The translations under genes and the position numbers were made by a program. The notes under the pieces were generated by a model. The model did not search any database. It was not told where the DNA came from and saw nothing but the letters and a program-made list of their open reading frames with translations. Below are positions 1 to 7,271 of a DNA stretch of 7,271 bases, in pieces. Position 1 is the stretch's first letter. Every line of letters begins with the position of its first letter. The DNA comes from a virus. Its lineage: Duplodnaviria; Heunggongvirae; Uroviricota; Caudoviricetes. The DNA is taken from positions 1 to 7,271 of the IMG/VR virus record IMGVR_UViG_2548876942_000003. One strand, given 5' to 3'.

Positions 1-345
1 ATTTTTCTTTCCAAAATCAGACCCCACATTTAATAAGACAGCATGATTTATTAATTATCTAAAAATCTCTGCAATGATATTGTATTACATAAATCTTCAA
101 ATAACATTAATCATTCTATCTTGAAACTTGTCTTAAACAAGATTACCTCTTTACTCTGCTGAGTCAAACAGCCTAGCCCACTCACTTGTATCACTCATCT
201 TTAACATCGCAGCGTAGTTTCTAACTGGAGCATACCGAATATGACCGCTATTAACATTATGCCGTAACTGCATATTTAGATATTGGATTAGGGGCATCGC
301 GCTGACAGAACTCAAATGCGGGCTCTTTGCCGCCCGCCCCCGCAG

Positions 346-389
346 AATCACGCTATCCGACGCAACCAGCTGCGACGGATAGCGTGATT
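346..389. terminator. Strong stem-loop 5 nt beyond the gene A stop codon; possible terminator or RNA-stabilising hairpin
   Basis: Seen in sequence: perfect 14-bp inverted repeat AATCACGCTATCCG (346-359) / CGGATAGCGTGATT (376-389), with an inner 4-bp stem CGCA/TGCG (361-364/371-374) and 6-nt loop. On the + strand it is followed by TTAATTCATTCTTT (moderately T-rich); on the - strand it is followed by G/C-rich sequence, so a U-tract exists only for rightward transcription. Function is inferred. Confidence 0.4.
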
Positions 390-393
390 TAAT

Positions 394-3006
394 TCATTCT
401 TTAGGGTAGCGACCTTCCGCACCCGCCAGCATTTTTTGATATTCCCCGACCGGATCAAACCGCAGGTGCGTGGCATCAATGCCGTGGTTATCCCGTAAAT
501 GTTCCCATAATTTATTCACCGTCCGTGACTCATTAGGTAATTGACGCGTTATCAACTGGCCGCCAGCACTGGCTTGATAAAATTTCCCGCCAATCTCCAG
601 ACGGCTCCCCATTAACAGCGAAACGGCCTGAATCTCTGAAATCTCAACCAAACACAACGCCGCATCAGCCAGCAGACTGGCAACCGCAGGGGCAAGCGCT
701 GCCCGCCTGGCTTTATCAGCCACCGATCTGGCCTCGGTTTTTTCCACGGCAGAACGCCAGGCAACATCTAATTCGCTCCCTGGTTCATAAGGTGATCCGC
801 TGTGCCGCCTTTTGAATGGTGCTTCACGTAGTCGCCGTATCAATTTGCGCCGCGTTGGCTGGTCCATATTTTCAAAATCGACGATTTCCTCTTCTGATTC
901 TTCTGTAATACCCTCCACACCAGGCGAAAAATCGGTGATTTTTTCGTCTTCCGTAGAGTTATTGACAGAACTCCAAGCGTCGCCGGTTGGCGACGGCAAA
1001 AGGTCAACCCCCAAACCGGGGCCGCTTTTGGCCCCAGTGACGGTTTTGGATTTGGCTCGAATTTTCCACTTAACCAGACGGGTGCAAATACGGGAGGCAT
1101 CCCCCAGACGCGGCGACCAGACCCCGAAAACCTTTTCGGGGATCTCACAATAAGCATTCATTTCATCAGCGGGCTGATAGGCCAGACGTACGACATAGTT
1201 TTCTCGCGGGATCAAAACACCACCCTGGCGGATGATGTAAGTAGCAAAGCATCCGACATCGGCAGCGGCGCAAACCGCATCCATTGCAGGATCCACAAGC
1301 AATGGCGCACCACGTTTGAAGGTACTGTCAATTTTCTGTCGGGTCGTGATCTGATTACTAAGTTTGCGCAGCTCGCGGTAAACCGATATGGGCGGCTGTC
1401 CGATGGGCTGAAACTGGCGGATACGGTGAAGCGATGCCCAGGCCATTGCATATTTGGCGCTTTCATTCAGCGGCTTGCCGCTTTCGTCGTCCAGTTCACC
1501 GGCCAGCGCGTGGCCGTCGATATTCTTCGAAATGTATTTAGCGATGTATGCCGTTGCTGACCCTTTCCGTGGGTCCATTTTTTTTGACTTGAAACGAGCG
1601 CCGGTATTGCGGCCCAGCTCGTCGCGGTCTTCCGCAATGAAGTAGGTGCGAAGGATCGCAACCGTGGCTTTGACTTGCTCTTGTGGCATAAACAGCAACG
1701 CGTGCCAGTGTGGTGTCCCATCGTGATGCGGCTCGGCGACACGGAAGCCATAAGGGCGCAAATCTTCGCGTTTCAGTTTGGCGGTTGCCCGGTTCCACAC
1801 ACGGCATAAATAGCACTGCGCCTGGGCGACGGTGGAATGATTCCATTTGGCGTTATGGTGGCCGGATGCAATATTACTGTGATATTTCGACGGGCAAGTG
1901 ATTGTCAGGAAGATGCCAACATCGCCGCGACTTTGGGCAACAAGCTCAACCCCAGCCATTCGGGCCATAAGCTCATGGCGACGAATAGCCGGGTTTGACG
2001 TGGATTTATTAATCATGTCCTCAAGTGAGGAAACGTTGCCGTCTTCGTCTACCAGTTCATGACTTTTGAAAAAATCCCGGTTTTTACGGCGCTGTTCCTG
2101 CCACTCGATCAGGCTGGAAGCGCTAACGTATGCGTGCGCTTTTTTATTTACCGCGCCAACGGCTCGCAGCTGGTTTTCGCGCCAGTCACAACGCAGGCGC
2201 CAGATTTTGCGCCCCCACCAGTCAGGCGAAGCCATACGCAAAATGGCCGTACATATCCGATCACGTTCCCACGGCGCATACCATGCAGGCGGCACAATGC
2301 GAAGCGCCAGCATTTCGCGGCCCAGATGACAATAAAGCCAGTCCAGTTCTTCGACGTTCATGTCGGAAACATTCTGTCCCAGGGCTTCGCATTCCGTCCC
2401 CAGCATTTCAGCCATGCGGCTGGCGATCTCATTAGCGGCGCTTAGTGCTTCCCGCTTTGTGAAATCAGCCAGCCGTTGCCAGCGCCCGAACCAGTACGCG
2501 GCCAGTTCGCCGGTGATATCAGGCGAAACACCTTGCCTTGTGCGCACAACATCAAGACGCAGCAATGATTTTTTCACTGTCCCCATAAGAAAATCATTGG
2601 TGTGTCTGGTTTCACGGTTGACCCGTAACCACTCAATTTTTTTACGCCAGACTTCACGAATGAAGAACGGCTCTGATAATAAACGTGCTTCGACACCTTC
2701 TGGCGTATTGGCCCAGGCTGCCGCCGTGGCTTTAGCGGCTTCCATTTCTTGCCGGATTATATTTTGATGGGCGGCCAGTGGCAGGCCGCATGGTTCGTAC
2801 CTGTCCAGCGCCTGGATGAGCGCATCACGGTCACGAACTTCGGCGGGATTGTAACCGGCACGTTTGAAGATGTGATCGATATGTTTTTTTACGGCAGGAT
2901 GATGCGCCACCGCCCCAGCAAGCGGGGCGATTTTTTTCGGTTCATAGATGTACGGGCCAACAGCTGGACGCGGTGCGTTCCAAGGCCATGCGAAAGCGTT
3001 AGTCAT
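394..3006 (-). CDS. A: Phage replication initiation endonuclease gpA (HUH rolling-circle initiator, P2 gene A family)
   Basis: 870-codon ORF with ATG at 3006-3004 and TGA at 396-394. The translation contains a HUH-type metal-binding motif (PHWHALLF, encoded about 1700-1713) and a paired-tyrosine active-site motif (YIAKYISK, encoded about 1534-1548) of the phiX174 gpA / P2 gpA type. Position at the end of the cox-led early operon matches P2 gene order. The ORF is longer than the P2 gpA length I recall (about 760 aa), so the exact start is less certain than the identity. Confidence 0.9.
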   Translation of the reverse strand: MTNAFAWPWNAPRPAVGPYIYEPKKIAPLAGAVAHHPAVKKHIDHIFKRAGYNPAEVRDRDALIQALDRYEPCGLPLAAHQNIIRQEMEAAKATAAAWANTPEGVEARLLSEPFFIREVWRKKIEWLRVNRETRHTNDFLMGTVKKSLLRLDVVRTRQGVSPDITGELAAYWFGRWQRLADFTKREALSAANEIASRMAEMLGTECEALGQNVSDMNVEELDWLYCHLGREMLALRIVPPAWYAPWERDRICTAILRMASPDWWGRKIWRLRCDWRENQLRAVGAVNKKAHAYVSASSLIEWQEQRRKNRDFFKSHELVDEDGNVSSLEDMINKSTSNPAIRRHELMARMAGVELVAQSRGDVGIFLTITCPSKYHSNIASGHHNAKWNHSTVAQAQCYLCRVWNRATAKLKREDLRPYGFRVAEPHHDGTPHWHALLFMPQEQVKATVAILRTYFIAEDRDELGRNTGARFKSKKMDPRKGSATAYIAKYISKNIDGHALAGELDDESGKPLNESAKYAMAWASLHRIRQFQPIGQPPISVYRELRKLSNQITTRQKIDSTFKRGAPLLVDPAMDAVCAAADVGCFATYIIRQGGVLIPRENYVVRLAYQPADEMNAYCEIPEKVFGVWSPRLGDASRICTRLVKWKIRAKSKTVTGAKSGPGLGVDLLPSPTGDAWSSVNNSTEDEKITDFSPGVEGITEESEEEIVDFENMDQPTRRKLIRRLREAPFKRRHSGSPYEPGSELDVAWRSAVEKTEARSVADKARRAALAPAVASLLADAALCLVEISEIQAVSLLMGSRLEIGGKFYQASAGGQLITRQLPNESRTVNKLWEHLRDNHGIDATHLRFDPVGEYQKMLAGAEGRYPKE

Positions 3007-3893
3007 TCACATATGCCCGTAGAAGTCGCAACCTTGAGAATACCGATCACCTCACTGGCGGCCCCTCGGGTAATGGCGTTCGCGCTGACAGAACGGTTAA
3101 CGCTAATTTCCTGGAAGTTGAAAGAGCGATAAATCTCGCAGGTGGCTGGGGTGTCGCTATTGGACAGGATCACCGGCGAACCAGTAAGGCGGTTAATATC
3201 CAGCAGAGCGGCAGCTAACTGGCGATGCTCTTTAATCCCAAACGGGGCGGTGTGGTATTGGGTGAAATTAGCGGTTTCGCTTGTTGGCAGGTATGGCGGA
3301 TCGCAATAGATAACCGCGTCACTACCAATCATGATTTTTAACGTGCTCTGGAAATCGCAGCACACGAAAATAGCTTTCGTGTCGTTAGCTTTTTCAGAGA
3401 ATAAACGGATTTGTTCTTCCGGGAAGTAAAGCGGGGTTTTGTGACGCCCAAAGGGAACGTTATATCCACCCTGTTGGTTGTAGCGTACTACGCCGTTATA
3501 TCCGTGACGGTTCAGGTAAAGAAATTGTGCTGCACGAAGAATCTTGCCCGCGTCCGGCCCATCTTCAAACACACTGCGCAATGACAGTAGGTCACGGGCG
3601 CGGGCGTTGAAATCATCGCGGATCCACTTATAGCCGTCTTTATCGCCGTACACTTTAAACAGTGGGCGAGCAGCGTCGATCACCGCATCAGGCCAGCGGG
3701 TTATCTGGCGATACAGGTTAATTAAATCTGGGTTGATATCACCCAGGATATAACGGCGATATTCAGTATTGAGGAAAACAGAAGCACCGCCGACAAACGG
3801 TTCCACCAGGCAATCGGCTTTCGGCAGAATCGGCAGCAAATCAGGCATAACGCGGCCTTTACCACCGGGCCATTTAACGAGAGATCGAATCAT
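3003..3893 (-). CDS. dam: DNA adenine methyltransferase, Dam family (N6-adenine, likely GATC-specific)
   Basis: 296-aa ORF with ATG at 3893-3891. N-terminal WPGGK motif, SAM-binding EPFVGGASVF (FxGxG) and catalytic DPPY motif (VIYCDPPYLPTS), plus extended similarity to E. coli Dam as recalled from memory. Shine-Dalgarno GGAGAAAG lies upstream. The stop codon overlaps the gene A start (ATGA, 3003-3006), implying translational coupling. GATC specificity is inferred from family membership. Confidence 0.9.
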   Translation of the reverse strand: MIRSLVKWPGGKGRVMPDLLPILPKADCLVEPFVGGASVFLNTEYRRYILGDINPDLINLYRQITRWPDAVIDAARPLFKVYGDKDGYKWIRDDFNARARDLLSLRSVFEDGPDAGKILRAAQFLYLNRHGYNGVVRYNQQGGYNVPFGRHKTPLYFPEEQIRLFSEKANDTKAIFVCCDFQSTLKIMIGSDAVIYCDPPYLPTSETANFTQYHTAPFGIKEHRQLAAALLDINRLTGSPVILSNSDTPATCEIYRSFNFQEISVNRSVSANAITRGAASEVIGILKVATSTGICE

Positions 3894-3963
3894 TTTTACT
3901 TTCTCCAGGGTGCAAGAAGCCCGACGCGTTAGCGCCTGTTTCTTTTTTGTGGGTAGTTAGTTG

Positions 3964-4353
3964 TTAATTTACTGCGTTATCTGGCGCGGGTGGTTTGTCG
4001 CGTATCGCCTGAATTTCGGCGCGTGGTGCGGCGTAGTCCTCAAATTCCCACGGCATTGATGCTGCAAATTCGGAAAGGCGCTTAATGCCCATCAAAAGGC
4101 ACGTTTGCTCCTTTTCGGTTAGATTTTCGTAAGTACAACCCAGCTGTTTGGCGGTCAGCTTCGGCATTCCGGCTATGTATCTGGACGCATCGTTTGCCAG
4201 GATGAAAATCACCTTTTTACAGGCATCATCCAGGCGGTTAAAACGGGTTGCAGTGTCGTTCACGCGTGAGACGTTCAAACTTGCTTGCAGTCGAGCCCGT
4301 TGCTCTAAGAACTGGCGACGGCCTGGCTGTTGTCCTGTCTTATCCATCAACAT
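3964..4353 (-). CDS. Hypothetical early-operon protein (about 129 aa), function unknown
   Basis: ORF in the early-operon orientation. The ORF track begins at a GTG (4359); I prefer the ATG at 4353-4351, which is preceded by GGGGAGGTGG with good spacing. Tightly packed, 15 nt after the stop of the upstream ORF. No motif I can recognise. Confidence 0.55.
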   Translation of the reverse strand: MLMDKTGQQPGRRQFLEQRARLQASLNVSRVNDTATRFNRLDDACKKVIFILANDASRYIAGMPKLTAKQLGCTYENLTEKEQTCLLMGIKRLSEFAASMPWEFEDYAAPRAEIQAIRDKPPAPDNAVN

Positions 4354-4368
4354 AACCACCTCCCCGAA

Positions 4369-4662
4369 CTACGCAAAGATGCCCATTAAGCGGGAAAACC
4401 AGCGGCGCTTATTACGCGGGCGCGACATAAACGGTACACGGCAGTTTTTAACAAATTGAACATCTGCCGCTTTAGGCTGGAAGAACCGCCCGTCCGGGGT
4501 TTCAATCCAGCCGCGTTGATGCTGACGGTGGGTGATCTGCTGGCCGTGGGTGAGCAGGCTGGCGAGTGAAGGGCACTGTGTTAAGTCCATGTTGATCTCC
4601 GTCATATTGAAAAGATGCCGGGATATAACCCCACGCCCGGCACGTGTTTCCTGTGATAACAT
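4369..4662 (-). CDS. Hypothetical small early-operon protein (97 aa from ATG 4662; alternatively 73 aa from ATG 4590)
   Basis: ORF in the early-operon orientation. The ATG at 4662 has only a weak AGG upstream; the internal in-frame ATG at 4590-4588 is preceded by GGAG with a 6-nt spacer and may be the true start. Basic, Arg-rich C-terminus (RPRNKRRWFSR). No recognisable domain. Confidence 0.45.
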   Translation of the reverse strand: MLSQETRAGRGVISRHLFNMTEINMDLTQCPSLASLLTHGQQITHRQHQRGWIETPDGRFFQPKAADVQFVKNCRVPFMSRPRNKRRWFSRLMGIFA

Positions 4663-4728
4663 CGCTATGCCTGTGTAACTTTGAGCAGTGAATCAGGCAT
4701 AACAATCACCAACACAGAAGGAGTTGTA

Positions 4729-5208
4729 ATGAAATTCAATGTGTTTTTTAAAAAAGACCACGGATCACACTGGGTACTTTCCGATGGTTCCCCCCTCTTT
4801 GAAAGTCCACTATTTGAAACAAGACCTAAAGCCATTGATGACCTTGAGAACTTTGTAGGCCTTATGGAATCGCCAATTTTTATTAAGGCTGGTGACGATA
4901 TTAATTCTGGCGATACAGAAAACTGTCCATCTGTAGTTATTTCTTTAAAACAGCATGAATCGCTATGGGGCTGGGAGTTATTTATCTCAAAAAATGGACA
5001 ACTGTCTAAAGTTACCGAAAGTTCAGGTAATGGCTTTGACTCATTAGAATTAGCAAAGCAAAGTGCCCAGTTTTTTATTAATGCCATTATCGACGCTCCT
5101 ATTCTGGATCAAGCCGATGTCGCTATCCCCGGTATGCACTTCTCAAAATCTTTCGAGGAAACGCACCACATTGGTGACATTCACCCATCCAGTAAATGGT
5201 TCAAATAA
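4729..5208 (+). CDS. Moron-like protein with tandem YegP/DUF1508-like repeats (159 aa), encoded antisense to the early operon
   Basis: The track ORF 4681-5208 starts at TTG; the in-frame ATG at 4729 is preceded by a strong Shine-Dalgarno (GAAGGAG, 6-nt spacer). The region is visibly AT-rich (about 37-40% G+C by hand count of a sample) versus more than 50% in A and dam. The translation shows two repeats whose hydrophobic pattern resembles the YegP/DUF1508 repeat as I recall it (KFNVFFKKDHGSHWVLSDGSPLFESP...AIDDLENFV and WGWELFISKNGQLSKVTESSGNGFDSLELAKQSAQFFINAI). The family assignment is from memory, not a search. Confidence 0.55.
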   Translation: MKFNVFFKKDHGSHWVLSDGSPLFESPLFETRPKAIDDLENFVGLMESPIFIKAGDDINSGDTENCPSVVISLKQHESLWGWELFISKNGQLSKVTESSGNGFDSLELAKQSAQFFINAIIDAPILDQADVAIPGMHFSKSFEETHHIGDIHPSSKWFK

Positions 5209-5212
5209 TCCA

Positions 5213-5560
5213 TCACTGCGGCGTTATCGTTTTTCTTGTGCGAGGTGGAACATCTCGCACGGTTTCTTCATCAACCATCAACTCATAAATTCTGATGCTG
5301 TTATCACCGTTTGATACGTCATCAAATACCTGAAAAAGAAAACTCATGAACTGCTCATAAGTGACGCTAGGTTCAACATACCCACCAGTAACCTCAATTA
5401 ACGGTGTTAGCCCTGAATTATCTGCTAAAGAAACGCAGTCCAACTTATCCAAACGGAAAAAGTAATTACCGCAAGGCGTTCTTTTGTCCTTAATCCGTAT
5501 AAATACATTTGATAACGCTGTATGACTATCTGAGAGCTTAAAGATTTTTGCCGTGTCCAT
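5213..5560 (-). CDS. Hypothetical AT-rich early protein (115 aa) immediately downstream of cox
   Basis: ORF with ATG at 5560-5558, 22 nt after the cox stop codon, same strand as the early operon. AT-rich like the neighbouring plus-strand gene. No recognisable domain, signal peptide or transmembrane segment in the translation. Its stop (5213-5215) lies 4 bp from the stop of the convergent plus-strand gene. Confidence 0.5.
   Translation of the reverse strand: MDTAKIFKLSDSHTALSNVFIRIKDKRTPCGNYFFRLDKLDCVSLADNSGLTPLIEVTGGYVEPSVTYEQFMSFLFQVFDDVSNGDNSIRIYELMVDEETVRDVPPRTRKTITPQ
5238..5268 (+). terminator. Candidate intrinsic terminator for the plus-strand moron gene
   Basis: 7-bp GC-rich inverted repeat GTGCGAG (5238-5244) / CTCGCAC (5254-5260) with a 9-nt loop, followed by GGTTTCTT. 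It begins 30 nt after the TAA of the 4729-5208 gene. A T-tract is present only on the + strand. Short stem and interrupted T-run, so weak. Confidence 0.3.
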
Positions 5561-5582
5561 TTTATTCAGCCCTGTAAGTTGC

Positions 5583-5858
5583 TTATGATGGATTGCCCAG
5601 ACCCAACCACATTAACCACCCTTCCCTAATTTCCTTGGGACGACTCTCATACGCCATTTTCATTCCGTTGTTCCAGGCTGGGAGGTAGACCCAGTACTCA
5701 CCTGCCCGCCCTGAAGTTGATTGCGGATCAGTCATCTCAACTACGGGTAGCTTTCCTTTTTCAATCATTCCCCTTACTGCTGCCGGTGTTTTGCCGATCA
5801 GTTTTGCAAACTCCTGGTACGGGACAGCATCACTAATACTGACAACTTGTTTGCTCAT
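5583..5858 (-). CDS. cox: Cox-type excisionase / lytic-switch repressor of Pc (P2 Cox family)
   Basis: 91-aa ORF, the same length as P2 Cox, with close similarity to the P2 Cox sequence as recalled (PYQEFAKLIGK...GKLPV..MTDPQS.SGRAGEYWVYLPAWNNG...YESRPKEIR.GWLMWLGLG). Shine-Dalgarno GAGGT lies 7 nt upstream of the ATG at 5858. Divergent from the C repressor gene, as in P2. Confidence 0.9.
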   Translation of the reverse strand: MSKQVVSISDAVPYQEFAKLIGKTPAAVRGMIEKGKLPVVEMTDPQSTSGRAGEYWVYLPAWNNGMKMAYESRPKEIREGWLMWLGLGNPS

Positions 5859-5981
5859 CTGCTAACCTCGTATCTAGATCTAACCAATGGGTTTCAAAGT
5901 TCTTTAATGGGCTTTGATGCACATTGACAACATCTAAAACCACATTAGAGAGTTTCGATAATATTAGAGGATCTTGATAAC
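5859..5981. promoter_or_regulatory. cox-C divergent intergenic switch region (Pe/Pc, operator region)
   Basis: 123-bp spacer between the divergent cox and C start codons. Besides the Pe elements it contains a plus-strand perfect TTGACA (5924-5929), a plus-strand TTTAAT (5903-5908) that could serve as the Pc -10 in a face-to-face arrangement, overlapping palindromes ATCTAGAT / TAGATCTA (5873-5883) that include a GATC, and one Cox-box-like TTAAAG on the minus strand (about 5902-5907). Pc cannot be placed uniquely from sequence alone. Confidence 0.6.
5944..5969. promoter_or_regulatory. Direct repeats ATTAGAG flanking the Pe -10 region; candidate C-repressor operator half-sites
   Basis: ATTAGAG occurs at 5944-5950 and 5963-5969 (extended ATTAGAGAG / ATTAGAGGA), 19 bp apart. 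One copy overlaps the candidate Pe -10 and the other lies just downstream of the predicted start. P2 C is known to bind direct repeats flanking the Pe -10; the assignment here is by analogy. Confidence 0.4.
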
Positions 5982-5988
5982 ATGTCAA
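5954..5988 (-). promoter_or_regulatory. Candidate early promoter Pe (sigma70-type) driving cox and the early operon
   Basis: Seen in sequence on the minus strand: perfect -35 TTGACA (plus-strand TGTCAA, 5983-5988, overlapping the first codons of C), a 16-bp spacer, and -10 TAATAT (plus-strand ATATTA, 5961-5966). Predicted start is near 5954, giving a leader of about 95 nt to the cox ATG. A GATC (5970-5973) sits in the spacer. Assignment as Pe is by analogy to the P2 switch. Confidence 0.5.
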
Positions 5989-6281
5989 CGCCCATAAGCG
6001 AAAAACTAGCGTTAGTTCGTGAGTCTGAGCGACTAAACCGGAAGCAATTCGCTGAAATAACAGGAGTTCCTTACAGTTCTCTAACTTATTATGAGAGCGG
6101 AAGAACTACGCCCCCCACTGACGTAACAATGAAAATTCTCCAGCACCCCAGATTTAGCAAATACACGTTGTGGTTTATGACCGATCAGGTTGCTCCCGAA
6201 GCCGGTCAGATAGCACCGGCCCTCGCACACTTTGGGCAAGATGTAACAACATCGCAGCACTCAGACCAAAAGATTGGTTAA
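5982..6281 (+). CDS. C: Immunity repressor C (P2 C family, 99 aa)
   Basis: 99-aa ORF, the same length as P2 C, with strong similarity to P2 C as recalled (ISEK..L.R.SE.L.R.Q.A..TGVPY..L.YYESGR.TPPTDV.M.ILQ.P.F.KYTLWFMT.Q.APE.GQIAPALAHFGQ). Shine-Dalgarno AGAGGA upstream. Divergent from cox and followed by int, as in P2. Confidence 0.9.
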   Translation: MSTPISEKLALVRESERLNRKQFAEITGVPYSSLTYYESGRTTPPTDVTMKILQHPRFSKYTLWFMTDQVAPEAGQIAPALAHFGQDVTTSQHSDQKIG

Positions 6282-6318
6282 CCATTCACCAGGCGCATCT
6301 TTATTACAAAATTTGTTT

Positions 6319-6350
6319 ACTTGTTGCCAAATACAACAAGCACAACAAGT
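6319..6350 (+). repeat. Inverted plus direct repeats in the C-int spacer (possible attenuator or protein-binding site)
   Basis: ACTTGTTG (6319-6326) is the reverse complement of CAACAAGT (6343-6350), an 8-bp stem with a 16-nt loop. ACAACAAG is directly repeated at 6333-6340 and 6342-6349. Followed by a short TTTGTG. Lies in the 145-bp A/C-rich spacer between C and int. Confidence 0.3.
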
Positions 6351-6426
6351 TTGTGAAATCTAAGCGCAAGGGAAAATTAACAGCAGCAAAGAAAACACAA
6401 CCTAGCACCATTCATTTGGGGGTCTT

Positions 6427-7233
6427 ATGACAATTAAGAAACTCGATGATGGTCGTTATGAAGTGGACATCAGACCTGCAGGGCGCAACGGAAAGCGCAT
6501 CCGCAGGAAATTTGACAAGAAAAGTGAGGCTGTAGCTTTTGAGAAACACACTCAATACAACCATCACGATAAAGAATGGTTGGCTAAACCGACAGATAAG
6601 CGGCATCTGTCTGAATTAACGAAAGTCTGGTGGGATCTGAAAGGCAAGCATGAAGAACACGGAAAATCTAATTTGGGTAAGATTGAAATCTTTACCCGGA
6701 TCACTGATGACCCTTGCGCGTTCCAGATAACCAAAGCGCTTATTAGCCAGTACAGCATGACTCGCAGAGGGCAAGGCATAAAACCGGCCAGTATTAACCG
6801 CGATCTTACCTGCCTGAGTGGTATGTTTACTGCGCTAATTGATGCGGAATTGTTCTTTGGTGAACATCCTTTCAGAGGGATGAAAAAGCTCAAGGAGCAG
6901 AAACCAGAAACCGGCTATCTGACGCAGGAAGAAATAACATTGTTGCTTGCCAATCTTGACGGGGACAACAAGAAAATCGCGATTCTCTGTTTAAGTACCG
7001 GCGCTCGATGGGGTGAGGCCGCGAAACTGAAAGCTGAGAACGTAATACAGAATCGGGTGACGTTCGTTAAAACAAAGACGAACAAACCGCGTACTGTCCC
7101 TATCTCTGAGGAAGTGGCTGTAATGATTGCGGGTAAAGGTTATCTGTTCCCTGATGCCTCATACCCGAAGTTCAGGCGAACAATGAAAGATGTAAAACCA
7201 GATCTACCGGACGGGCGTAAGCGTACAGCCTGA
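6427..7233 (+). CDS. int: P2-type tyrosine integrase, N-terminal 268 codons only; the C-terminal catalytic region (HxLRH box and active-site Tyr) is not encoded before the in-frame stop, so likely truncated or disrupted
   Basis: ATG at 6427. The translation matches the P2 Int N-terminal and core-binding region as recalled (MTIKKLDDGRYEVDIRPAGRNGKRIRRKFDKKSEAVAFEK ... LSTGARWGEAAKLKAEN ... VTFVKTKTNKPRTVPIS) up to ...KPDLP (about 7213). It then diverges and hits TGA at 7231-7233. P2 Int is 337 aa, and none of the three forward frames after 7210 encodes an HxLRH-like motif. Confidence 0.75.
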   Translation: MTIKKLDDGRYEVDIRPAGRNGKRIRRKFDKKSEAVAFEKHTQYNHHDKEWLAKPTDKRHLSELTKVWWDLKGKHEEHGKSNLGKIEIFTRITDDPCAFQITKALISQYSMTRRGQGIKPASINRDLTCLSGMFTALIDAELFFGEHPFRGMKKLKEQKPETGYLTQEEITLLLANLDGDNKKIAILCLSTGARWGEAAKLKAENVIQNRVTFVKTKTNKPRTVPISEEVAVMIAGKGYLFPDASYPKFRRTMKDVKPDLPDGRKRTA

Positions 7234-7271
7234 ACCGTCTGGTCAGAATCTGACGAATTAGACAAAGTGGT

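What the first reader, a model, noticed from the sequence alone, without database searches (positions are those of the whole stretch)
6427..7271. Integrase reading frame ends prematurely; sequence diverges from the P2 Int pattern after ...KPDLP (about 7213)
The first roughly 262 residues track P2 Int closely. Where I expect the region leading into the conserved HxLRH box and catalytic tyrosine, the sequence instead encodes DGRKRTA followed by a stop, and no alternative frame restores an integrase-like sequence in the remaining 38 bp. As encoded, the product would lack the catalytic C-terminus. Possible explanations are a deletion or rearrangement that removed the 3' end of int and the adjacent att site (a grounded, cryptic prophage that still keeps immunity and replication genes), a mobile-element insertion, or an assembly junction. 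The abruptness of the divergence suggests a junction rather than gradual drift.
Basis: partly seen in the sequence, partly recalled or inferred. Interest (0 to 1): 0.5.

Follow-up and report, generated by a model that had tools for sequence, protein, structure and literature searches.

The report
Insertion sequence ISEc8 interrupts prophage integrase
The integrase gene of a P2-like E. coli prophage stops early because a common mobile element (ISEc8, IS66 family) has jumped into it, and the window ends 55 bases into that element; this is an ordinary gene disruption.

Summary
ORF 6427-7233 encodes 268 aa instead of about 335. It lacks the HxxR box, the second His and the catalytic Tyr.

The cause is a mobile-element insertion.
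- Window 1-7216 is about 99.9-100% identical to prophages in 19 complete E. coli genomes. There the int gene runs on to 335 aa (86.6% identical to P2 Int) and lies next to yegR/yegS.
- Window 7217-7271 is 55/55 identical to the left terminal repeat of ISEc8 (IS66 family, 2442 bp).

The true breakpoint is 7216|7217, not after KPDLP. Asp and Gly are native residues; only R-K-R-T-A-stop is IS-derived.

The junction is not an assembly chimera. The exact 268-aa product occurs on about 28 contigs from independent assemblies. One contig identical to the window continues 2021 nt into ISEc8 (tnpA, tnpB, tnpC). Every such contig ends inside the IS, as expected for a repeat in short-read assemblies.

I could not find the right-hand junction (IS right end, 8-bp duplication GGACGGGC, int 3' end). 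A later IS-mediated deletion or rearrangement is therefore not excluded.

Inferred consequence: a catalytically dead Int and a prophage that cannot excise. Known kind of event, low interest.

The parts
6427..7216 (+). 5' 790 nt of a P2-type tyrosine integrase gene (codons 1-263 plus the first base of codon 264). It encodes the arm-binding N-terminus, the Int_N core-binding domain and the first half of the catalytic domain, including Arg-I in STGARWGEA.
   Evidence: 100% identical to the int genes of about 20 complete E. coli genomes. 264/268 residues match WP_000152889.1. Pfam Int_N at residues 57-156 and a partial Phage_integrase match at 164-234. Alignment with P2 Int.
7209..7216 (.). Predicted 8-bp target site GGACGGGC. 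A second copy should flank the right end of the IS if this is a simple transposition.
   Evidence: These are the last 8 bases of int before the IS end. The reference ISEc8 copy in phage 1717 is flanked by an 8-bp duplication, GGTTATCG. An 8-bp duplication is reported for IS66 (PMC6778807). The second copy was not observed here.
7217..7271 (+). First 55 nt of ISEc8 (IS66 family), the left terminal inverted repeat GTAAGCGTACAGC... The IS is oriented so that tnpA-tnpB-tnpC read in the same direction as int. The window ends inside the element.
   Evidence: 55/55 identity to positions 14876-14930 of the annotated 2442-bp 'insertion sequence:ISEC8' in Stx2 phage 1717. The identical contig L003 continues 2021 nt into ISEc8 with 1 mismatch and encodes HTH_Tnp_1, TnpB_IS66 and DDE_Tnp_IS66 proteins.
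7216..7233 (+). Fusion tail of the truncated ORF: hybrid codon c|gt (Arg), then Lys-Arg-Thr-Ala from the IS terminal repeat, then stop TGA at 7231-7233.
   Evidence: Read directly from the sequence. Comparison with the intact allele, which continues ...DGQATHALRHS.
5982..6281 (+). C-type immunity repressor gene immediately upstream of int, intact. In P2, int lies directly downstream of C and the annotated Pc promoter. Co-transcription of int with C from Pc is from my memory of the P2 literature, not from the annotation.
   Evidence: phrog_147 transcriptional regulator, E = 4e-41. HTH Pfam hits. Same gene order as the annotated P2 region Pc-C-int.
5583..5858 (-). cox (excisionase/repressor) gene, intact and divergent from C-int. 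Its excision function has no active Int partner in this prophage.
   Evidence: PF10743 Phage_Cox. phrog_272 Cox-like excisionase and repressor, E = 8e-45. The P2 annotation says Cox is required for prophage excision.

Best explanation
A copy of the insertion sequence ISEc8 (IS66 family, 2442 bp) transposed into the int gene of a P2-like (Peduovirus-type) E. coli prophage. It landed between window positions 7216 and 7217, inside codon 264.

The int reading frame runs 5 codons into the IS left terminal repeat and meets a TGA. The product is 268 aa. It keeps the arm-binding and core-binding domains and Arg-I. It lacks the His-x-x-Arg box, the second His and the nucleophilic Tyr, so it cannot cleave or rejoin DNA.

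Inferred consequence: the prophage can no longer excise with Int and Cox, or re-integrate, by its own means. It is locked in the chromosome while immunity (C), cox, replication (A) and the other early genes remain intact.

The window stops 55 nt into the IS because ISEc8 is a multicopy repeat that short-read assemblers cannot cross.

Shown: the identity and exact position of the junction, its occurrence in independent assemblies, and the loss of the catalytic motifs.

Inferred: loss of excision, and the presence of the rest of the IS, an 8-bp duplication and the int 3' end further on.
For: - Window 6427-7216 is 100% identical to intact int genes. Window 7217-7271 is 55/55 identical to the first bases of annotated ISEc8.
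- The intact allele continues ...PDGQATHALRHS...LGH...MVYAHF... to 335 aa and is 86.6% identical to P2 Int.
- In 19 complete genomes, window 1-7216 is matched at 99.9-100% with an intact int. In the two examined (2011C-4251 and JB2), int is followed by yegR/yegS. The insertion is therefore recent and derived.
- The exact 268-aa product is on 28 contigs from NCBI, Logan and ENA.
- L003 is identical to the window over all 7271 nt and continues 2021 nt into ISEc8, with tnpA, tnpB and tnpC. L004 has 2 SNPs and the same junction. L005 comes from a different assembler and has the same junction.
- Contigs end 55 nt (the window) or 110 nt (L005, contig name k111_) into the IS. For L005 the overlap matches the k-mer size named in the contig.
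- The Pfam catalytic-domain match is cut to positions 2-79 of 172.
- ISEc8 is known to disrupt genes in E. coli prophages, for example stx2a (PMC5359411).
Against: - The right-hand junction was not found. This is the IS right end, the 8-bp repeat GGACGGGC and the remaining 218 nt of int.
- It was absent from 5,426 complete E. coli genomes, from pattern scans of the viral, metagenome and species-representative genome collections, and from exact look-ups of ORFs predicted for it.
- Only 2021 of 2442 nt of the IS are seen contiguous with int.
- Simple transposition with an intact downstream int remnant is therefore assumed, not shown.
- Loss of excision is inferred from the missing catalytic residues and was not tested.
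Confidence: 0.93

Rival explanations
1. ISEc8 inserted as above, but a later event removed or relocated the 3' end of int, the att site and perhaps neighbouring host genes. That event would be homologous recombination between ISEc8 copies, or an IS-mediated adjacent deletion or inversion. The DNA beyond the IS would then not be the int remnant.
For: The right junction could not be found anywhere. The predicted remnant ORFs of 67, 58 and 49 aa, and the antisense ORFs that would span the junction, are absent from the protein collection. E. coli genomes that match the query carry up to 22 matching places, mostly copies of the ISEc8 end, which gives substrates for recombination. IS66-IS66 recombination deletions are documented (PMC6778807).
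Against: The absence is weak evidence. The collections scanned do not contain the draft assemblies that carry this allele. Short remnant ORFs without a ribosome-binding site are often not called. No positive sign of a deletion was seen. To the left, the prophage is contiguous on contigs of 23-124 kb.
Confidence: 0.15
2. The junction is an assembly or scaffolding chimera. An intact int gene would have been wrongly joined to an ISEc8 end that lies elsewhere in the genome.
For: The window ends a k-mer-like 55 nt into a multicopy repeat. No complete (long-read) E. coli genome in RefSeq has this junction.
Against: The same breakpoint, to the base, occurs in at least three separately assembled data sets made with different assemblers and differing by SNPs elsewhere. 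The exact fusion protein is on 28 contigs. The break falls exactly at the first base of the IS terminal repeat, as transposition predicts. Int and the IS share no sequence at the join that could mislead an assembler.
Confidence: 0.02
3. The break is a prophage end. Either the attachment site lies inside int, so that integration splits or re-tails the gene (as in SSV1-type or Mx8-type integrases), or a plain deletion fused int to host DNA.
For: None beyond the abrupt truncation near the prophage end.
Against: The DNA after the break is the terminal repeat of an IS, not host DNA. Nearly identical prophages have a full-length int; in the two examined, it is followed by about 260 bp and then yegR. 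In P2 the attP core lies about 80 bp downstream of the int stop.
Confidence: 0.01

Closest known systems
ISEc8 (IS66 family) insertions in E. coli prophage genes, e.g. the annotated ISEc8 in Stx2-converting phage 1717 and the ISEc8 within stx2a of O157 isolate 9000 (PMC5359411)
   Same: The element is the same: 55/55 identity in the window, and 2020/2021 in the identical contig L003. It has the same GTAAGCG... terminal repeat and the same tnpA-tnpB-tnpC set. The outcome is the same, insertional inactivation of a prophage gene.
   Different: The target is the int gene of a P2-like prophage at codon 264. This particular junction is not present in any of 5,426 complete E. coli genomes. The right end and the target duplication were not seen.
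Bacteriophage P2 integrase (NP_046786.1) and the intact E. coli prophage allele WP_000152889.1
   Same: Residues 1-263 are identical to WP_000152889.1 and about 85% identical to P2 Int. The C / cox / int gene order is the same.
   Different: The last 72 residues of the 335-aa allele are missing: HALRH, LGH, the Tyr in MVYAHF and the C-terminal tail. The 5 IS-encoded residues RKRTA replace them.
Other IS-disrupted P2-type int genes in E. coli (IS256-family 'Transposase_mut' insertions seen in L008 and L010)
   Same: The class of event is the same: an IS inside the 3' part of a P2-type int, leaving a short C-terminal remnant next to the host flank. L010 is at the same yegR locus.
   Different: The IS family and the insertion position differ. 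In those cases the remnant side is visible.

Membership tests
ISEc8 / IS66-family insertion sequence | Terminal inverted repeat beginning GTAAGCG..., identical to the reference element end | tested here: met
   Window 7217-7271 equals the first 55 nt of annotated ISEc8. The reference element's two ends share GTAAGCGTACAGC as an inverted repeat.
ISEc8 / IS66-family insertion sequence | Three-gene set tnpA (HTH_Tnp_1), tnpB (TnpB_IS66) and tnpC (DDE_Tnp_IS66) | tested here: met
   Not inside the window. Present directly after the junction on contig L003, which is identical to the window over 7271 nt. tnpC is cut by the contig end.
ISEc8 / IS66-family insertion sequence | 8-bp target-site duplication flanking both ends | not testable with these tools
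   No available sequence contains the right end. The reference copy shows the 8-bp duplication GGTTATCG. The predicted duplication here is GGACGGGC. Scans for it were negative.
ISEc8 / IS66-family insertion sequence | Complete element of about 2442 bp with a right terminal repeat | tested here: inconclusive
   2021 of 2442 nt are seen contiguous with int. All contigs end inside the IS.
P2-type (Peduovirus) tyrosine integrase | N-terminal arm-binding region plus Int_N core-binding domain, with high identity to P2 Int | tested here: met
   PF24624 Int_N, E = 1.6e-24. About 85% identity to P2 Int over the retained part. The intact allele is 86.6% identical.
P2-type (Peduovirus) tyrosine integrase | Complete catalytic set Arg ... 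His-x-x-Arg ... His ... Tyr | tested here: not met
   Only Arg-I (STGARWGEA) is retained. HALRH, LGH and the Tyr of MVYAHF lie beyond the break. The Pfam catalytic profile is covered at 2-79 of 172 only. As encoded, this is a disrupted gene, not a functional member.
P2-type (Peduovirus) tyrosine integrase | Genomic context: downstream of the C repressor, divergent from cox and the early operon, at the prophage end | tested here: met
   cox (-), C (+), int (+) in the window. Same order as annotated P2. Intact relatives place int next to host yegR.
Integrases split or re-tailed by an att site inside the gene (SSV1-type, Mx8-type; recalled from memory) | The break coincides with the att core and is followed by host DNA, with the other gene part at the opposite prophage end | tested here: not met
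   The break is followed by an IS terminal repeat. Prophages at the same locus have an unbroken int.

The most novel reading that the evidence does not exclude
The truncated Int retains the arm-binding and core-binding domains and Arg-I. It might be kept by selection rather than being debris. It could act as a DNA-binding, catalytically dead competitor at P2-type att sites, blocking integration or excision of related phages. Alternatively, the IS insertion might be favoured because it locks in a prophage that carries useful cargo: the orphan Dam-type methylase, Fil, and an uncharacterised 930-aa gene in the variable region next to gene A. The allele's presence on about 28 contigs with small SNP differences shows only that it is inherited, not that it is selected.
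Probability: 0.03. Interest if true: 0.4.

Novelty: already known. Interest (0 to 1): 0.07.

Why it matters
It matters little beyond annotation. The int gene here should be annotated as a pseudogene disrupted by ISEc8, and the prophage as probably unable to excise. The case also shows that an abrupt gene truncation at the very end of a contig most often means a repeat (an IS) at which the assembly broke. For strain typing, the int::ISEc8 junction could serve as a clonal marker for the lineage that carries it.

Tried and rejected
1. Left junction. I searched for the exact sequence in complete E. coli genomes, species-representative genomes, viral contigs and JGI metagenomes. All were negative. 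The junction turned up only through an exact look-up of the 268-aa product.

2. Right junction. I scanned for the IS right end, 0-20 nt, then the int 3' sequence in viral contigs (with a fixed 8-bp duplication) and in metagenome and genome contigs. All were negative.

3. Predicted ORFs. I built the hypothetical right junction in silico and looked up every predicted remnant ORF (67, 58, 49 and 36 aa). I also looked up antisense ORFs that would span the junction, including versions cut at the contig edge for k = 55 to 111. Only the 36-aa remnant exists. Its contigs are unrelated events, either other IS insertions or contig breaks. This gives no information about the present allele.

4. Source strain. 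I tried to identify it from the literature by assembly accessions. Nothing was found.

5. Rejected readings: att-within-int split integrase, plain deletion to host DNA, assembly chimera. The reasons are given under the rival explanations.

6. PADLOC scan of the unknown ORFs of the prophage. It gave no defence-system hits apart from the methyltransferase.

Full report
**Observation**

The window contains an ATG-initiated ORF at 6427..7233 on the + strand. It encodes 268 aa and ends ...KPDLPDGRKRTA*. The start codon is the same as the RefSeq-annotated int start in related genomes.

**What lies on each side of the break**

- A megablast of 6427-7271 against 5,426 complete E. coli genomes splits the query cleanly. 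Bases 1-790 of the query (window 6427-7216) match 'phage integrase' genes at 100% in about 20 genomes.
- Bases 791-845 (window 7217-7271) match thousands of places in 3,418 genomes.
- Against the phage collection, only bases 791-845 match. They are 55/55 identical to the first 55 nt of a feature annotated 'insertion sequence:ISEC8' (2442 bp) in Stx2-converting phage 1717.
- A three-way alignment puts the switch exactly between 7216 and 7217. The intact gene continues ...CCG GAC GGG CAA GCA ACT CAC GCA TTG CGT CAC... (PDGQATHALRH). The window continues ...GGG C|GT AAG CGT ACA GCC TGA, where GTAAGCGTACAGC is the ISEc8 terminal inverted repeat.
P2 has Met where this lineage has Asp after KPDLP. 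Asp and Gly are native residues.

**What the gene is**

- The intact allele (WP_000152889.1, 335 aa) is 86.6% identical to bacteriophage P2 Int over its full length.
- The truncated product is identical to that allele over residues 1-263.
- Pfam finds Int_N (57-156) in both proteins. The Phage_integrase catalytic profile is covered at 2-169 of 172 in the intact protein but only 2-79 of 172 in the window's protein.
- In the alignment with P2 Int the window product keeps Arg-I (STGARWGEA). It lacks HALRH (His-x-x-Arg), LGH, and the Tyr in MVYAHF.
- The P2 record describes Int as acting through a covalent phosphotyrosine intermediate.
- Established knowledge of tyrosine recombinases says such a protein cannot catalyse strand exchange. 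This is an inference and was not tested here.

**Surroundings**

The rest of the window is a standard P2-like early region:

| Coordinates | Strand | Gene or product |
|---|---|---|
| 394-3006 | - | gene A replication endonuclease |
| 3003-3893 | - | Dam-type orphan methyltransferase |
| 3964-4359 | - | unknown function |
| 4369-4590 | - | Fil-family cell-division inhibitor |
| 4729-5208 | + | unknown function, 159 aa |
| 5213-5560 | - | unknown function, 115 aa |
| 5583-5858 | - | cox |
| 5982-6281 | + | C repressor |

- Window 1-7216 is 99.9-100% identical to prophages in 19 complete E. coli genomes. The best match is strain JB2, with 3 mismatches.
- In all 19 the match stops at 7216, over a feature annotated as an integrase. 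None has the ISEc8 junction.
- In the two genomes examined in detail, 2011C-4251 and JB2, int is complete at 335 aa. It is followed after about 260 bp by the host genes yegR and yegS.
- The interrupted allele is therefore a recent derivative of an otherwise unchanged prophage.

**Is the junction real?**

- No complete genome has the junction. Exact-pattern scans of three other collections were also negative.
- An exact look-up of the 268-aa fusion product found it in 45 blocks of the assembly collection and on 28 contigs from NCBI, Logan and ENA.
- Contig L003 (GCA_015912685.1, VXDK01000078.1) is identical to the window over all 7271 nt. It continues 2021 nt into ISEc8 with one mismatch. There it encodes HTH_Tnp_1, TnpB_IS66 and DDE_Tnp_IS66 proteins in the same orientation as int.
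- L004 differs from the window by 2 SNPs. L005 comes from a different assembler. Both have the same junction, to the base.
- An assembly chimera is therefore very unlikely.
- All these contigs end inside the IS. The window ends 55 nt in. L005, whose contig name carries k111, ends 110 nt in. This is the usual signature of a short-read assembly breaking at a multicopy repeat, and it explains why the window ends where it does.

**What is not shown**

- IS66-family elements make 8-bp target duplications. This is reported for IS66 (PMC6778807) and seen directly for the reference ISEc8 copy, which is flanked by GGTTATCG on both sides.
- The predicted duplication here is GGACGGGC (7209-7216).
- I could not find the right-hand junction. 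Pattern scans were negative.
- Exact look-ups of all ORFs predicted on an in-silico right junction were negative, except for a 36-aa remnant. The contigs carrying that remnant turned out to be different events.
- Those events include IS256-family ('Transposase_mut') insertions in related P2-type int genes. One of them is at the same yegR locus.
- A secondary IS-mediated deletion or rearrangement, of the type documented for IS66 in PMC6778807, therefore remains possible. I rate it at about 0.15.
- The negative results are weak evidence, because the searchable nucleotide collections do not include the draft assemblies that carry this allele.

**Mechanism and consequence**

- ISEc8 transposed into codon 264 of int. 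The frame reads Arg-Lys-Arg-Thr-Ala from the IS terminal repeat and stops at TGA 7231-7233.
- The product has DNA-binding domains but no active site.
- P2 prophage excision needs Cox (P2 annotation). That it also needs Int is established knowledge of P2-type excision, not stated in that annotation. On this basis the prophage is expected to be locked in place.
- Immunity, cox and replication functions remain coded. This last step is inference.

**Comparison with the known**

- The element is ISEc8 by sequence identity. The gene is a P2-type int by sequence and context.
- IS disruption of prophage genes in E. coli is documented. An example is ISEc8 in stx2a, with IS629 in a prophage excisionase, in O157 isolate 9000 (PMC5359411).
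- Other IS-disrupted P2-type int genes turned up here by accident.
- The reading that an att site inside int splits the gene (SSV1- or Mx8-like, recalled from memory) fails its defining test. The break is followed by an IS end, and sister prophages have an unbroken int.

**Verdict**

This is an already known kind of event of low interest. The only open point is whether the int 3' remnant still lies beyond the IS.

Noticed in passing
window 1-29 (start of the gene); L003 811-3603 (-): A 930-aa ORF begins at the left edge of the window. It lies between gene A and an ogr/portal block. From memory, this is the position of the variable cargo region of P2-like phages (tin/old in P2). It has no Pfam hit and no PADLOC hit, and matches only PHROGs of unknown function (phrog_10073, phrog_18005). 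It could be an uncharacterised accessory or defence gene.
   Followed up: partly
window 3003-3893 (-): A Dam-type orphan DNA adenine methyltransferase (296 aa) sits in the early operon, overlapping the start of gene A by 4 nt. Hits: PF02086, PADLOC oMTase at E = 5e-87, phrog_56. From memory, P2 itself has no such gene.
   Followed up: partly
window 4681/4729-5208 (+): A 159-aa ORF (175 aa from an upstream TTG) of unknown function (phrog_9021) reads opposite to the surrounding early genes. This is a moron-like arrangement. No PADLOC hit.
   Followed up: partly
window 4369-4590 (-): A Fil-family (phage 186 Fil) cell-division inhibitor homologue, 73 aa (PF10893, phrog_816), lies in the early operon.
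   Followed up: no
L001 1555-2768 (NZ_CP027388.1); also H42, H50 and H43: Sister prophages with an intact int carry other IS insertions in the same early region. An IS3-family element lies next to, and shortens, the 115-aa ORF in strains 2011C-4251, RM13322 and FWSEC0003. An IS1A is present in SW071610. This prophage family is a frequent IS target.
   Followed up: partly
L008 1781-4111; L010 1-412: Independent IS256-family ('Transposase_mut') insertions lie in the 3' part of related P2-type int genes and leave the same 36-aa C-terminal remnant. One is next to clpA/clpS, the other next to yegR.
   Followed up: partly
L009 1170-3764 (+): An 864-aa SIR2_2-domain protein lies directly upstream of an int 3' remnant at the clpA locus in a Logan contig. 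No phage genes were called in between. It may be a defence gene left in a decayed P2-like prophage.
   Followed up: no
window 394-3006 (-): The gene A replication endonuclease here is 870 aa. It aligns to phrog_91 over almost its full length. From memory, this is about 100 aa longer than P2 gpA (761 aa). I did not check that figure.
   Followed up: no
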